IMG/VR virus record: IMGVR_UViG_3300011415_000011
Span: 1-41,203 of that record
DNA: 41,203 bases
Origin: a virus
Taxonomy: Duplodnaviria; Caudoviricetes
Direction: 5' to 3' (one strand)
The translations under genes and the position numbers were made by a program. Each line of letters starts with the position of its first letter. Positions within the stretch are counted from its first letter, which is position 1. Below the pieces are notes generated by a model. That model was not told where the DNA came from and did no database searches. It saw only the letters and a program-made list of their open reading frames with translations. Positions 25,715 to 38,753 of the stretch are shown piece by piece.

Positions 25715-27013
25715 GTGAATATGGAAAATCTTCCTCTTGCTCCTAGGCAAGTAGAGTTCATTATTAACGCAACTGCTCATTGGAACTTAGCACATGGTTC
25801 GGTGCGTTCTGGTAAGACTGTCGGGTCATTATTTGCCTTTATGAATGCTGTAGAAACTTGTCCAGATAGCCAAATATTCATGGTTGGGCATAGTAGCGAT
25901 ACGATATTTCAGAATGCAATAAGATTATTACTTGAGAGCGAACAATTATCCATATATAAGCCATATTGCACTTGGTATAGTGGTAAGAGGCAACTAAAGT
26001 ATAAAGATAAAACTATTCAGACATTAGGTGCTAAGGATGAAGGGGCTATTGGGCAATTCCAAGGTAAAACTTTTAGCTTATGTTATAATGATGAAATGAC
26101 ATTATATCCTGAGTCCATCATTGATATGATTGATACACGTTTAAGCAATCCCTGGAGCAAAGGTTTTGCCACTATGAACCCAGCACAGCCTACACATAAG
26201 ATTAAAGAGTGGATAGATAAGGCTGAAGCTGGAGATCCTAATTATTATTCATTACATTTTACTTTGGATGATAACCCATATGTTGATGAAAGTTATAAGC
26301 AGCGTATTCGTAATTCTTTATCTGGTCTTTTCTATAAGCGTAATTACCTTGGCCTTTGGTGCTTGGCTGAGGGGGCAATCTTCGACTTCTTTGACAAGAA
26401 AATACATGTTCTCCCTAAGCCCCCTGCTGCTGCTGAATATTGGGTTGCTGGGATTGATTATGGGGTTAGCAATGCTTTTGCTTGCGTCTTGGTGGGAATA
26501 AATACAGGTATTGCAACGCAGACAGGTAAGCGATTATGGGTTGAGAAGGAATACTATTGGGATTGTAAGAAGACTGGTAGGCAGAAGATCAATAGTGAGT
26601 TTGCAGATGATATTCAAGCTTTCCTTGAGCCATACGCGGTCAAGAATATCTACATTGACCCAAGTGCATTATCAATGAAATTAGAGCTACAGCGTCGAGG
26701 TATGCACATTGTAGAGGCTAATAATGATGTATACAATGGCATTCAAGAGATGTGTACGCAAATGGGTAAAGGTAACTTGTATGTGCTAAAGGATTGCCCT
26801 AATTTGATTCGAGAGATTGAAGGATATGTCTGGGATAGTAAGAAGAGTGCACAAGGTGATGATTGTCCAGTCAAGAAAGCAGACCATGCAGTTGATGCAT
26901 TGAGATATGTTATAGCTACTCATAAGGTTGCAGTTTATAGCCCATTTAAAAATGGCCATAATCCAGAAGACTATGGCCAAGGTAGATTTAATATAGGACC
27001 TAGGATGTTTTAG
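25715..27013 (+). CDS. terL: Terminase large subunit (PBSX-like)
   Basis: Walker A GSVRSGKT, Walker B CYNDEM, TMNP coupling motif; nuclease motifs GIDYG, IDPSA and DHAVDALRY. Confidence 0.95.
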   Translation: MNMENLPLAPRQVEFIINATAHWNLAHGSVRSGKTVGSLFAFMNAVETCPDSQIFMVGHSSDTIFQNAIRLLLESEQLSIYKPYCTWYSGKRQLKYKDKTIQTLGAKDEGAIGQFQGKTFSLCYNDEMTLYPESIIDMIDTRLSNPWSKGFATMNPAQPTHKIKEWIDKAEAGDPNYYSLHFTLDDNPYVDESYKQRIRNSLSGLFYKRNYLGLWCLAEGAIFDFFDKKIHVLPKPPAAAEYWVAGIDYGVSNAFACVLVGINTGIATQTGKRLWVEKEYYWDCKKTGRQKINSEFADDIQAFLEPYAVKNIYIDPSALSMKLELQRRGMHIVEANNDVYNGIQEMCTQMGKGNLYVLKDCPNLIREIEGYVWDSKKSAQGDDCPVKKADHAVDALRYVIATHKVAVYSPFKNGHNPEDYGQGRFNIGPRMF

Positions 27014-27948
27014 GCATCTTCAAGAAATTCTTTCATAGGATCAATTCTTAAATAGTATTCTTTTAGGAAATTAAAGAATTCCATATTTGAAGAGAAGTTT
27101 GATATCTTTGGTAATTTAATAGTTTTATGATCAAACTTTGACATAACTTCTTTAAAGTTATATTTATCATGTTTCATTAATTTTATATAAGCGTCAAAGA
27201 ATTCGCTATTGCTGAAAAATGATTTAGGAGCAAGACTATAACTTATACATTTATCTAAAAATCGGCACACTTCATCAACTTCACGTCTGCGCTCTAATTC
27301 ATTATTAAAAACAAATTCACCACTTCGAAAAATATTGCTAAGTCCTTTTCTTTCTGAAGGTCTTTTTGATAAAGGTAAAGCAGTGCATATATCAAGTTTG
27401 AAATCATCACAGAATTTTTTAAAGTTGATATATTCTTGGTTTCCTAATTTGCAATAGAATTCGCAGAATTGCGGTGTAGTCCATTTTGAAAGGCAATAAC
27501 CAGTATCAACGATATCATTAATATGAAAATCATCAGCTATAATAAAGTAAATAGGAAGCTGCTTTTCAAGGGCTATAGTGAATCTGTGATTTCCATTTGT
27601 AATCTGATATCGATTCGATTCGTTAACCTCACCTTGAGGCTTTAAAACAGTTATAGGATATTCATGAAGAAGATTGTGTCTTTCTATAGACTCTCTAAGC
27701 CTATTTAGGTTTCTATCCTGTAGTTTGCGCTGTAAGTGGAAAGGTTCAAATAGCTTGTAATCAGTGGATGAAAATATTTTAGGTGGCTCTTTTGAAATAT
27801 TTTTTGATTCGGATTGGTTTTGTTGTGGACTAGAAAGTTGATTTAAGGTATCATTTAGGCTATTTTCTGAAAATTCATTTTGTGATAAACAATTTGACAT
27901 ATGACCGTCCTTATGTGTTGCCATATAGTTGTTATCTTGCCAGAGCAC
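27010..27948 (-). CDS. ParB/Srx-like N-terminal domain protein
   Basis: LRESIE..NLL..PITV...YQITNGNHRF; true start probably a downstream Met. Confidence 0.7.
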   Translation of the reverse strand: MLWQDNNYMATHKDGHMSNCLSQNEFSENSLNDTLNQLSSPQQNQSESKNISKEPPKIFSSTDYKLFEPFHLQRKLQDRNLNRLRESIERHNLLHEYPITVLKPQGEVNESNRYQITNGNHRFTIALEKQLPIYFIIADDFHINDIVDTGYCLSKWTTPQFCEFYCKLGNQEYINFKKFCDDFKLDICTALPLSKRPSERKGLSNIFRSGEFVFNNELERRREVDEVCRFLDKCISYSLAPKSFFSNSEFFDAYIKLMKHDKYNFKEVMSKFDHKTIKLPKISNFSSNMEFFNFLKEYYLRIDPMKEFLEDA

Positions 27949-28202: not shown

Positions 28203-28289
28203 GAGTTCCGTATCTCAACTGGAAGAGAGGCGGTATTATGGGGTAAAGCTCAGTTATGCAGGTTATGGGTTCAAATCCCATCGGAACTC
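28203..28289 (+). tRNA. tRNA-like element with an expanded, non-canonical anticodon arm
   Basis: Acceptor GAGTTCCG/CGGAACTC, D arm TCTC-AACTGGAA-GAGA, T arm ATGGG-TTCAAAT-CCCAT; anticodon region is 30 nt instead of 17. Confidence 0.65.
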
Positions 28290-28324
28290 ACCTTGTTAAT
28301 TATTATTTGAAGAGGCTTGGATGA

Positions 28325-36580: not shown

Positions 36581-36844
36581 ATGTCGATCGCGACTACTGG
36601 CAATTTAGGGCCAATGATCTTGCAATCGCTCGCGCCTGCAATGTTATATGTTCCTACGCCAACAATGAATTACATTACTGTTTGTGACAAAGTAAGTATG
36701 CCAGCTAATGGCGGTACTACAATGCGTTTTATGCGCCCACGTGCGCTACAGCCACCTACTGTACAATTAGGAAATTCTGGTATTGATCCACCAGCCCAAG
36801 TGCCTCAAAGAGATATCATTGATGCACAAATGGCATTTTTCGGT
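36581..36844 (+). CDS. Major capsid protein (N4-gp56-like), exon 1 (88 codons)
   Basis: ATG after SD GAGGT; SMPANGGTTMRFMR...DIIDAQMAFFG. Confidence 0.85.
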
Positions 36845-36885
36845 ATAATTGCCAGTGCCGAAAATGAACCCGATTATGCTTATAG
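36845..36885 (+). ncRNA. 41-nt core-less group I-type mini-intron
   Basis: Follows U and ends in G; guide GCCAGT-GCCGAAAA pairs with 5' exon TTTTCGGT (U-G wobble) and 3' exon ACTGGC; removal restores FFG-TGCIINEQV in frame. Confidence 0.75.
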
Positions 36886-37053
36886 ACTGGCTGCATAATC
36901 AACGAGCAAGTGATACTTCAAGATCAAGAGGGTGTTTTGGCTTGGGTGTCAGATAGGCTCGCCGTCGCAATGAGACAAGCGGAAGATTTAATTTTAAGAG
37001 ATTATATTGTTTCTGCTGCGTCACAAATCAATGCTGGCGGAGGTTCCAACGGT
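36886..37053 (+). CDS. Major capsid protein, exon 2 (56 codons)
   Basis: TGCIINEQVILQDQEGVLAWVSDRLAVAMRQAEDLILRDYIVSAASQINAGGGSNG, containing a spine-helix-like segment. Confidence 0.85.
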
Positions 37054-37243
37054 AGAGTTGTTGCCGTTGTAAAATCAGACCTAATCGACTTGGAACTCTG
37101 ACCACGTAATGGTGAAGACAACAAGGCGGAACCCGAAAGGGACCGTGAACGACTAAAGCGGTCAGACACCGAAAGGTGAAGCGATAGTCTAATCTCATAG
37201 GAAACTATGAGAGGTGGCAGAAATGACCACCCGCTTAAGTGTT

Positions 37244-38155
37244 TTAAATACCTTTACGATTAAGATCATGAACTTTATGAAAAAGCTTATCTCTAACTTC
37301 AAGAATAGTAGCGTAGAATTCTTTAAATTTTGGAGAATTTCTGCTTATATTTCCAGTCAAGGGTACGGTTGTTTCAAAAAAATTCATGAGTTCTACACAA
37401 ACAGGTTTTTTGTGTTTGAGATAAGGAAGAATTCTTGGAAGAATATCCCCGAGAGATTTACTAGAAAGACGCCATGTCAAGAAATCTCTATGATTGATAT
37501 CTTTGGATCTACGTTCAACAAAATGAACTTGGCCTCCAAATCTTTCCATAAGCCATTTAAAAATAGGAAATTTGGTGTTTCCACATTGAAGAAGAATTTT
37601 GTAAATAAAATTATCCCTGTTTTTTTGAGTGTATCTAAATATTCCAAGAGAACATTCGGCATCAATGAGGCCAGAGAGATAAACAAAATCCAATTCATTG
37701 GGAACAATTGTCAAAATATGCTCACTCAGAGATGCTTTGTCAGTTTTTTTTATCAAATTTCTTTCATTTTTAACTTTCTTAAGTTGATTCATCAAAATAT
37801 CTTTTTCAATAGGACAAGAAGATTTAATAAATTTGCAGTAAATTTCTGCTTCTTCTCGTTTTTCAATGAGAAAAGGAAGAATTTGTTGCACAAATTTAAT
37901 AGATTTTTTGCCTCTGATAATAAAATGATGTTGAGGTTTCCATTTAGAAGACCTTGTTCCATTGTCTGCAATCCTTCGCACTCCTGGAAAAGTCTTTATA
38001 AGAAACTCAATTATATTTGTATCAGTAGAAGAGATGATGAAAGAACATGCGTATTTAGCTGTTCCAGTGGTTTTTCGGATGGTTTTTCTTATATGAAAAC
38101 ACCCGTCTCCATCTGTATAACCAGCTACATAAGTTAAGGTATTTTGATTTATCAT
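37244..38155 (-). CDS. Double-motif LAGLIDADG homing endonuclease, antisense to its host intron (303 aa)
   Basis: YVAGYTDGDGCF and YLSGLIDAECSL; probable start MINQNTL at 38155. Confidence 0.9.
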   Translation of the reverse strand: MINQNTLTYVAGYTDGDGCFHIRKTIRKTTGTAKYACSFIISSTDTNIIEFLIKTFPGVRRIADNGTRSSKWKPQHHFIIRGKKSIKFVQQILPFLIEKREEAEIYCKFIKSSCPIEKDILMNQLKKVKNERNLIKKTDKASLSEHILTIVPNELDFVYLSGLIDAECSLGIFRYTQKNRDNFIYKILLQCGNTKFPIFKWLMERFGGQVHFVERRSKDINHRDFLTWRLSSKSLGDILPRILPYLKHKKPVCVELMNFFETTVPLTGNISRNSPKFKEFYATILEVRDKLFHKVHDLNRKGI

Positions 38156-38161
38156 GTGAAT

Positions 38162-38190
38162 AGTATCACAGGATAAGGCATTTAAGTCAA
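38162..38190 (-). promoter_or_regulatory. Intron-internal sigma70 promoter for a leaderless endonuclease mRNA
   Basis: TTGACT-N17-GATACT with TG extension, followed by 6 nt and ATG. Confidence 0.7.
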
Positions 38191-38204
38191 CAAGTAATAG
38201 TATG

Positions 38205-38753
38205 TTCAATCCTACGAATTTAGGTGTTAGTGACTTTAGTTTAGTTGCTACTACACTAGATACTAATAATGCGTATAAGTTCATGACAGGTATTGAAGGC
38301 ATGGACAGATTTGGGACCGGTCCTGTACGAAGTGCGTATTTTATGCTTTCGTCAACTGAGCTACAAAGCGATTTTGATGGCCTAGTAGGCTCTGGCTTCC
38401 TCTCACAGTGGAATTATCCTACTAATGCTTCTGCGTTGCCCAGCGAATATGGCTCAGTGTATAACATTCGTGTTCTCACTAGCTCTGAAGCACCAGTTGC
38501 AAGAAATGCTGCTATTAATAACGTTGGTGTTCTTAACGACGTTTATTACAATACCGTACTAGGTAAACAAGCGATTACGCATATTAATCAGAATGGCTTT
38601 AGCATGAATCTGATCTATCGTGATCCTTACTATTCTGGAATGCTTGCACAGAATGCGACTTTGGCAGTTAAATTTGCTCAAGCGCAAGCTATTACGCAAG
38701 ATACAGCTATAAGAAATGTTCTCTCAACTCGCAACAGTGCATTGGGGGTATAA
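38205..38753 (+). CDS. Major capsid protein, exon 3 (182 aa)
   Basis: FNPTNLG...GTGPVRSAYF...SEYGSVYNIRVL; SEYG..YNIR pattern typical of HK97-fold capsids. Confidence 0.85.
   Translation, partial: FNPTNLGVSDFSLVATTLDTNNAYKFMTGIEGMDRFGTGPVRSAYFMLSSTELQSDFDGLVGSGFLSQWNYPTNASALPSEYGSVYNIRVLTSSEAPVARNAAINNVGVLNDVYYNTVLGKQAITHINQNGFSMNLIYRDPYYSGMLAQNATLAVKFAQAQAITQDTAIRNVLSTRNSALGV

What the first reader, a model, noticed from the sequence alone, without database searches (positions are those of the whole stretch)
36841..36900. Mini-intron 3' half can switch pairing between the 5' splice site and exon 2
Seen: GATTATGC (36872-36879) pairs perfectly with exon 2 GCATAATC (36893-36900), placing the 3' splice site in a 13-nt loop (TTATAG-ACTGGCT) where the guide could dock as a pseudoknot. 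GATTATGCT can alternatively pair with GGTATAATT across the 5' splice site (9 bp including G-U pairs), which competes with P1. Most of the 41 nt therefore take part in predicted pairings. Inference: the hairpin presents the terminal G to a borrowed catalytic core, or the alternative pairing acts as a switch timing capsid synthesis.
Basis: partly seen in the sequence, partly recalled or inferred. Interest (0 to 1): 0.7.

Follow-up and report, generated by a model that had tools for sequence, protein, structure and literature searches.

The report
Coreless mini-intron tethered to neighbour ribozyme
A 41-base insert that breaks a phage's capsid gene has a self-splicing intron's guide but no catalytic part; it is predicted to clamp both ends of the next exon so that the neighbouring complete intron likely cuts it out, while the proposed timing switch is not conserved.

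Summary
Both pairings exist as written. The hairpin GATTATGC/GCATAATC (anchor A) is conserved with compensatory changes: at least 8 bp in 67 of 78 related minis. The 'switch' pairing is 11.5 kcal/mol less stable and beats shuffles in only 3 of 78.

The insert (36845-36885) is one of 101 distinct inserts found at three capsid sites (29-79 nt, one of 974 nt). They have U|...G borders, P1 and usually P10, but no catalytic core. In 116 complete genes, 28 of 28 mini carriers have a full group I intron next, against 13 of 88 others.

It forms in 97 of 99 minis and changes with the partner's site. Read-through of unspliced RNA ends in an ssrA-like (A/V)A-stop in 91 of 101.

Best reading (0.72): a dependent 'satellite' intron spliced in cis by its neighbour's ribozyme. 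One RNA contig shows the partner removed at the predicted borders. No read covered the mini junction, so its excision and mechanism are inferred. Ten paper searches found only engineered analogues.

The parts
36581..36844 (+). Capsid exon 1 (88 codons), ends in U of the U.G splice-site pair
   Evidence: spliced alignment to an intron-free homolog; family TIGR04387
36845..36885 (+). 41-nt coreless mini-intron, ends in G (omega-G 36885)
   Evidence: 101 related minis; no P7-type motifs in any
36837..36864 (+). Mini P1: exon 36837-36844 with guide 36857-36864, U36844.G36857
   Evidence: predicted pair probability 0.98 (short window) and 0.69 (long window)
36851..36856 (+). P10 guide GCCAGT, complementary to exon 2 36886-36891
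   Evidence: sequence; P10 of 4 or more bp next to the U.G pair in 96 of 101 minis; two-sided changes
36866..36870 (+). Anchor B, mini side (GAACC)
   Evidence: predicted pair probability 0.89-0.93 with 37042-37046; L100 has GATCC/GGATC
36872..36879 (+).
36886..37053 (+). Capsid exon 2 (56 codons); anchor A partner at 36893-36900, anchor B partner at 37042-37046
36887..36898 (+). Shifted-frame Leu-Ala-Ala-stop; unspliced read-through ends ...ENEPDYAYRLAA*, an ssrA-like tail
   Evidence: degradation not tested
37054..38204 (+). Partner full-length group I intron (1151 nt); own P1 37047-37053 with 37063-37069; P3, P4, P7, P9 motifs in about 37075-37240
   Evidence: one RNA-library contig joins 37053 to 38205; core covariation in related partners; Rfam RF00028 did not hit this copy
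37244..38302 (-). LAGLIDADG endonuclease ORF, antisense to the partner intron
   Evidence: PF00961, E 4.6e-08
38205..38753 (+). Capsid exon 3

Best explanation
The 41-base insert is a group I-type mini-intron with a splice-site guide but no catalytic core, and it is likely spliced out in cis by the ribozyme of the full intron downstream, to which its 3' half is predicted to tether it. Shown by sequence and comparison: U|...G borders, P1 and P10 complementarity, no core, a full intron always next, and two exon-2 pairings that follow the exon sequence (A) and the partner's position (B). Inferred steps: (1) anchors B and A fold exon 2 (21-168 nt across the family) out of the way and put the mini's P1 beside the partner's P1; (2) the partner core docks the mini's P1 and free G cuts after U36844; (3) P10 and the anchor-A loop present G36885 and exon 1 joins exon 2; (4) the partner then docks its own P1 and splices. 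A ribosome on unspliced RNA would stop at 36896-36898 and release a fragment ending Leu-Ala-Ala, likely degraded like a tmRNA-tagged protein.
For: Co-occurrence: 28 of 28 mini carriers against 13 of 88 non-carriers have a full intron in codons 88-146 among 116 complete distinct genes, Fisher p 3e-17. Of 101 minis, 97 got a partner automatically, 3 by eye, and 1 contig ends too early. Anchor B: a mini-exon 2 helix with probability >0.5 lies 0-5 nt from the partner's P1 in 97 of 99 (0-2 nt in 95). With exon 2 of 50 nt or more it is 37 of 37, against 54 of 180 shuffled minis. Mean duplex energy with the mini's own B window is the lowest value in each of 10 site-partner classes. Covariation in the 88-to-96 class: 93.8% of cells paired, 34 cells and 6 pairs changed on both sides, slid controls 21-57% paired. 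Four insertion sites (88, 91, 104, 114) and seven anchored partner sites use the same layout; L091, L094, L298, L300 and L305 hold two mini-partner pairs. L231 anchors past an intervening intron to the usual partner site. Partner splicing in RNA: joint 37053-38205, 85 of 85 letters identical. Tail under selection: the exon-2 shifted frame reads (A/V)A-stop in 53 of 54 minis that run into it, 4 of 76 insert-free genes and 1 of 23 minis with their own stop. Partners have mostly lost the AA-stop that lone introns carry (4 of 82 against 75 of 107; at site 144, 0 of 2 against 6 of 6). Chemistry has engineered precedent: a core acting on a P1/P10 pseudoknot substrate (ref. 27 as described in PMC2532722) and use of an upstream 5' splice site by a downstream intron (PMC10136302).
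Against: No read or contig covered the mini junction in the one run on record as RNA, so excision of this mini is not shown here. The partner junction rests on one contig of depth 2 with a 30-letter short side, one under the tool's bridging rule; an intron-free allele is not excluded. In this window anchor B is only 5 bp and alone is not significant (shuffle p 0.27; 14 of 106 other exon windows bind as well); only 22 of 37 long-exon minis reach p<=0.05 by that test. Where exon 2 is 26 nt, A and B are one helix. The minis' 3' ends show no match to the partner's P9.0 strand by eye, so how the mini's G displaces the partner's own is unexplained. All structures are predictions, and the registers were read from these sequences. 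Most minis came from patterns that fix the flanking codons. 10 of 101 lack the (A/V)A tail. The partner-versus-lone tail contrast is confounded by site and lineage, and 28 of 82 partners stop at once. The capsid tree is star-like, so independent origins cannot be counted.
Confidence: 0.72

Rival explanations
1. The mini is spliced by a group I core, but in trans and after the partner has left: the excised partner (or any other intron RNA) binds the P1/P10 pseudoknot, as in trans-excision-splicing. Anchor B would only keep exon 2 folded.
For: Engineered cores do this (PMC2532722 passages; PMC4094466 abstract). The exon 2-exon 3 junction contig does not show whether the mini was already gone. 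Loss of the AA tail in partners also fits partner-first order.
Against: B sits 0-2 nt from the partner's P1 in 95 of 99 and moves with the partner site, which has no purpose once the partner is excised. Minis are never left with only upstream or distant introns in 28 of 28 complete genes.
Confidence: 0.13
2. One reading: the 3' half flips between exon 2 and the 5' splice site to time capsid synthesis.
For: The 9-10 bp alternative exists here and beats 100 of 100 shuffles. The excised 41-mer folds weakly with the same strands (-2.1 kcal/mol), so it might aid product release in this lineage.
Against: 11.5 kcal/mol above the main fold, pair probability about 0; significant in 3 of 78 site-88 minis; under 7 bp in L100.
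Confidence: 0.05
3. The mini splices by itself or with a protein, as claimed for 56-81 nt fungal rDNA inserts.
For: PMC3160393 (passages) reports in vitro splicing of the small PaSSU intron.
Against: Minis go down to 29 nt, with P1, P10 and the anchors using nearly every base, and none has P7-type motifs. Autonomy does not explain the obligatory partner or anchor B.
Confidence: 0.04
4. The insert is not spliced: ribosomes bypass it (T4 gene 60 style, recalled), or the genes are dead remnants.
For: No RNA across the mini junction was seen here.
Against: The take-off codon is repeated at the landing site in 0 of 101. U.G, terminal G, P10 and anchors are conserved. Exons keep about 95% identity to intact capsids. 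28 of 116 complete genes carry a mini, and the capsid locus is present in an RNA library.
Confidence: 0.04

Closest known systems
Phage group I introns with homing endonucleases (T4 td, Twort; review PMC3984707; Bastillevirinae PMC11878797; crAss-like capsid genes PMC7886860)
   Same: U.G at the 5' splice site, terminal G, P1 and P10 guide, in-frame stop; the partner is such an intron with a LAGLIDADG gene.
   Different: The mini has no P3-P9 core and is tied to a specific neighbour by an exon-2 anchor. Term searches in these three papers showed no such element; supplements were not read.
Engineered trans-excision-splicing, spliceozyme and shortened-core reactions (PMC2532722, PMC4094466, Sargueil and Tanner 1993 as cited in PMC2532722)
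   Same: A group I core removes a short segment that lacks a core, using P1, P10 and a terminal G.
   Different: Laboratory constructs acting in trans; in TES and the spliceozyme the guide is on the ribozyme. Here the guide is on the substrate, the core is a natural cis neighbour, and the tether runs through the exon.
Small 'degenerate' group I inserts of fungal SSU rDNA (PaSSU, Arthonia, Porpidia; PMC3160393)
   Same: 56-81 nt inserts keeping P1 and P10, with pairing to the 3' exon.
   Different: Described as self-splicing with a P7-like element, in eukaryotic rRNA, with no obligatory partner. I recall that some were reinterpreted as spliceosomal (reference title seen only).
Tandem group I introns with exon skipping (Twort orf142, Coxiella 23S; PMC10136302)
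   Same: Two introns around a short exon, and a downstream core able to use an upstream 5' splice site.
   Different: Both introns are complete and the outcome is skipping; here exon 2 is conserved and must be kept.
tmRNA (SsrA) degradation tag
   Same: C-terminal hydrophobic-Ala-Ala; one tag found in a genome assembly holding a related contig ends LLMAA.
   Different: Encoded in cis by intron or shifted exon frame; proteolysis untested; the second tag found ends VAI.

Membership tests
Group I intron (the mini) | U.G pair at the 5' splice site within P1 | tested here: met
   U36844.G36857; 5-8 further pairs in 101 of 101; the U was required by the filter
Group I intron (the mini) | Terminal G and P10 with the 3' exon | tested here: met
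   G36885 (required by the filter); P10 of 4 or more bp in fixed register in 96 of 101; covariation
Group I intron (the mini) | Catalytic core P3-P7 with G-binding site | tested here: not met
   41 nt; no P7-type motifs in 101 of 101; no Rfam hit. Not filed as a member; works like one
Group I intron (the mini) | Removal from RNA by two G-dependent transesterifications | not testable with these tools
   junction not covered in RNA
Group I intron (the partner) | P1, P3, P4, P7, P8, P9 core | tested here: met
   motifs in the window sequence; covarying helices in 4 related partners
Group I intron (the partner) | Match to Rfam RF00028 | tested here: inconclusive
   no hit in the window; of 10 related loci, 2 hits above cut-off (site-90 introns) and 1 partner below cut-off at E 2e-7
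Group I intron (the partner) | Precise removal from RNA | tested here: inconclusive
   one contig joins 37053 to 38205 exactly, 30-letter side, depth 2
Translational bypass element | Matching take-off and landing codons | tested here: not met
   0 of 101; feature recalled from T4 gene 60
Conformational RNA switch | Two conserved folds of similar energy | tested here: not met
   11.5 kcal/mol gap; 3 of 78 above shuffles
ssrA-like degron | C-terminal Ala-Ala kept by selection | tested here: met
   73 of 101 AA-stop, 91 of 101 (A/V)A-stop; 53 of 54 against 4 of 76
ssrA-like degron | Degradation by ClpXP-type protease | not testable with these tools
   needs a reporter assay; host unknown

The most novel reading that the evidence does not exclude
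A natural class of non-autonomous 'satellite' group I introns: programmable guide-plus-tether RNAs of 29-79 nt that plug into a neighbour's ribozyme, force mini-first splicing, make the partner intron indispensable, carry a built-in destroy tag, and in some cases (L170, L320) home with their own LAGLIDADG gene although they have no core.
Probability: 0.55. Interest if true: 0.9.

Novelty: categorically new. Interest (0 to 1): 0.8.

Why it matters
One natural ribozyme core would process two different introns in order, a reaction that my searches found only as laboratory constructs. The family offers about 100 natural designs of guide and tether for removing short segments from RNA. It would also give introns a way to become permanent: once a mini is present, losing the partner should destroy the capsid gene. 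Such inserts look like frameshifts and are missed by Rfam and gene callers.

Tried and rejected
Switch pairing: rejected. Ribosome hop: no matching codons. Pairing of the mini's 3' end with the partner's P9.0 strand: none seen by eye. Rfam at gathering and at E<=5 found no intron model in the window. RNA: three runs with 5-6% of words. X1 gave 5 contigs in 19.9 kb, all in the capsid gene and the next gene, none over the mini. The 41-nt skip in X2 is from a probably-DNA run of diverged relatives and was not counted. X3 covers only the start of the gene. Capsid DNA tree of 153 genes: label changes 60 against 63 shuffled, star-like, uninformative on origins. Host not established: no match among annotated phage records; 14 genome-collection contigs sit in assemblies of many phyla, 3 of them chlamydial. 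Rows dropped: L248 (no capsid match), L269 (mini not parsed), duplicates, and 97 of 213 loci that were partial or repeated before the 116-gene count; L320 was counted there as a non-mini gene; L231 and L257 were left out of the 99. L320 and the two site-114 minis are outside the 101. The translation began one base off and was not used. My notebook figure '72 of 78 at 8 bp or more' was wrong; it is 67 (72 at 7 bp or more). Paper searches found no natural coreless intron spliced by a neighbour; the library lacks most subscription journals and no supplements were read.

Full report
Setting. The window is a 41-kb virus record with terminase, portal and an N4-gp56-family major capsid gene. A spliced alignment to an intron-free homolog splits the capsid gene into exon 1 (36581-36844), a 41-nt insert (36845-36885), exon 2 (36886-37053), a 1151-nt insert (37054-38204) and exon 3 (38205-38753); both inserts follow a U and end in G. 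The large insert has its own P1, group I core motifs and an antisense LAGLIDADG gene. Rfam detects neither insert.

Observation. GATTATGC (36872-36879) is the exact complement of GCATAATC (36893-36900), with the 13-nt loop as described; pair probability 0.998. The alternative pairing with 36842-36850 has 9 bp, 3 of them G-U, and beats 100 of 100 shuffles here, but forcing it costs 11.5 kcal/mol and its probability rounds to 0.

The family. Protein and pattern searches of viral, metagenome and genome collections (one search kept 80 of 227, 119 of about 200) gave 101 distinct coreless inserts at codons 88, 91 and 104, 29-79 nt plus one of 974 nt, and two more at codon 114. All have P1 with 5-8 pairs beyond U.G; 96 have a P10 of 4 or more bp in fixed register; none has P7-type motifs. 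In the set not selected for minis (116 complete distinct genes out of 213 loci), 28 carry a mini, all 28 have a full intron as the next insert, and only 13 of the other 88 have a full intron in codons 88-146 (p 3e-17). In that set all full introns at sites 96 (6), 101 (6) and 122 (10) follow a mini; outside it, L119 and L240 have a site-122 intron with no mini directly before it. Mini-bearing capsid genes are a median 72.5% identical, so these are not near-duplicates, but the tree is star-like and cannot count origins.

Anchor A against the switch. Among 78 site-88 minis the helix with exon-2 positions 7-19 has 8 or more bp in 67 and beats shuffles in 70; the alternative helix beats shuffles in 3. 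When exon 2 changes ATA ATC to ATC ATC, the mini changes GATTAT to GATGAT: at exon position 12 the pairs are U-A 57, G-C 15, A-U 3, unpaired 3. In the 88-to-96 class 93.8% of cells pair and 34 cells change on both sides, with no shuffle reaching that and slid controls at 21-57% (related sequences and a register read from them inflate this).

Anchor B. The bases just after the mini's P1 pair with the end of exon 2, next to the partner's P1: here G36866-C36870 with G37042-C37046, probability about 0.9, with no gap before the partner P1 at 37047. L100, with the same partner site, has GATCC/GGATC in place of GAACC/GGTTC. The segment changes with the partner: ACTTG-type for site 101, CTCAT for 120, CTTG(N)CGCAT-type for 122. 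Such a helix lies within 5 nt of the partner P1 in 97 of 99; for long exons 37 of 37 against 54 of 180 shuffles. By a simple duplex test it is weaker: 22 of 37 at p<=0.05, and this window's 5-bp helix alone is not significant. L231 anchors past an intervening intron to site 101 and L320 to a partner at site 116.

Tail. Unspliced read-through ends ...YAYRLAA* at 36898. 91 of 101 minis end in (A/V)A-stop. Site-88 minis of length 3n+2 use the shifted frame of exon 2 (53 of 54), which reads so in 4 of 76 insert-free genes and 1 of 23 minis with an internal stop. Lone full introns also end in AA-stop (75 of 107), partners rarely (4 of 82), as if the mini shields the partner from ribosomes, though site and lineage confound this. 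tmRNA tags in two assemblies holding related contigs end LLMAA and DLVAI; the host is not established. That AA tails are ClpXP signals is my own knowledge.

RNA. One metatranscriptome (X1) holds five contigs of 99% identity or more in 19.9 kb, all in the capsid gene and the next gene: one joins 37053 to 38205 exactly (30-letter side, depth 2) and one is unspliced there. None reaches the mini.

Origin (inferred). A full intron exists at site 88 (L105). Full introns with a tail, an ORF in the P1 loop and a core exist (L119, L127, L151). L170 and L320 have tail, LAGLIDADG gene, guide and anchor but no core motifs. Loss of the core next to a usable partner, then loss of the endonuclease gene, would give the minis.

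Mechanism and rivals. Cis use of the neighbour's core, mini first, explains the obligatory partner, the position of B and the retained exon 2 (0.72). Trans action by an excised intron (0.13), a switch (0.05), autonomy (0.04) and no splicing (0.04) fit less well. How the mini's terminal G out-competes the partner's is not explained.

Literature. Seen as passages: PMC3160393, PMC10136302, PMC2532722, PMC11878797, PMC8565351, PMC7886860, PMC3984707 and bioRxiv 10.64898/2026.10.21.760802; abstract and outline only: PMC4094466; Sargueil and Tanner 1993 only as described in PMC2532722. Ten searches found engineered analogues and small fungal inserts but no natural neighbour-spliced coreless intron; supplements and most subscription papers were not seen. 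Earlier AI notes of this scan describe the same class in other genomes, two claiming RNA evidence of mini removal, and the AA tail. I could not check their RNA claims and do not count them as support.

Verdict. Observation confirmed; borrowed-core half supported and extended, switch half rejected. Not a member of group I introns (no core) but works like one. Interest 0.8.

Noticed in passing
L170:2673-3646 and L320:4549-5501: Site-104 inserts of 974 and 953 nt with an AA-stop, a 292-aa LAGLIDADG gene in the P1 loop, guide and anchor, but no core motifs: possibly mobile coreless introns.
   Followed up: partly
L298 and L300, capsid codon 114: A fourth mini site (43 and 36 nt) where exon Leu-Ala plus GCN-TAA gives LAA-stop at once; partner at 122, exon 2 of 24 nt.
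   Followed up: partly
L091, L094, L298, L300, L305: Two mini-partner pairs in tandem in one gene.
   Followed up: partly
window 37244-38302 (-): The partner's LAGLIDADG ORF is antisense and its longest frame starts inside exon 3; the sense strand over it is also open (37214-38137).
   Followed up: no
Capsid genes of all related loci: Full group I-type introns at over 40 capsid sites; most lone ones downstream of codon 60 read ...IDLELLAA* while those before codon 50 mostly stop at once.
   Followed up: partly
L094, L212, L294, L302, site 98: Partners at site 98 have an unusual insertion after P1, and anchor B lies 5-6 nt from their P1.
   Followed up: no
L204 (same as L300), site 88: A 79-nt mini with an extra stem-loop before the terminal G.
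   Followed up: no
L223, L229, L232, L247, L259, L270: A group of site-88 minis with partner 101 that lack the (A/V)A tail.
   Followed up: no
window 28203-28292: tRNA-Pro(GGG) gene between terminase and a DNA cytosine methylase.
   Followed up: no
window 27010-27948 (-): 312-aa ORF opposite the terminase gene with no Pfam or NCBIfam match.
   Followed up: no
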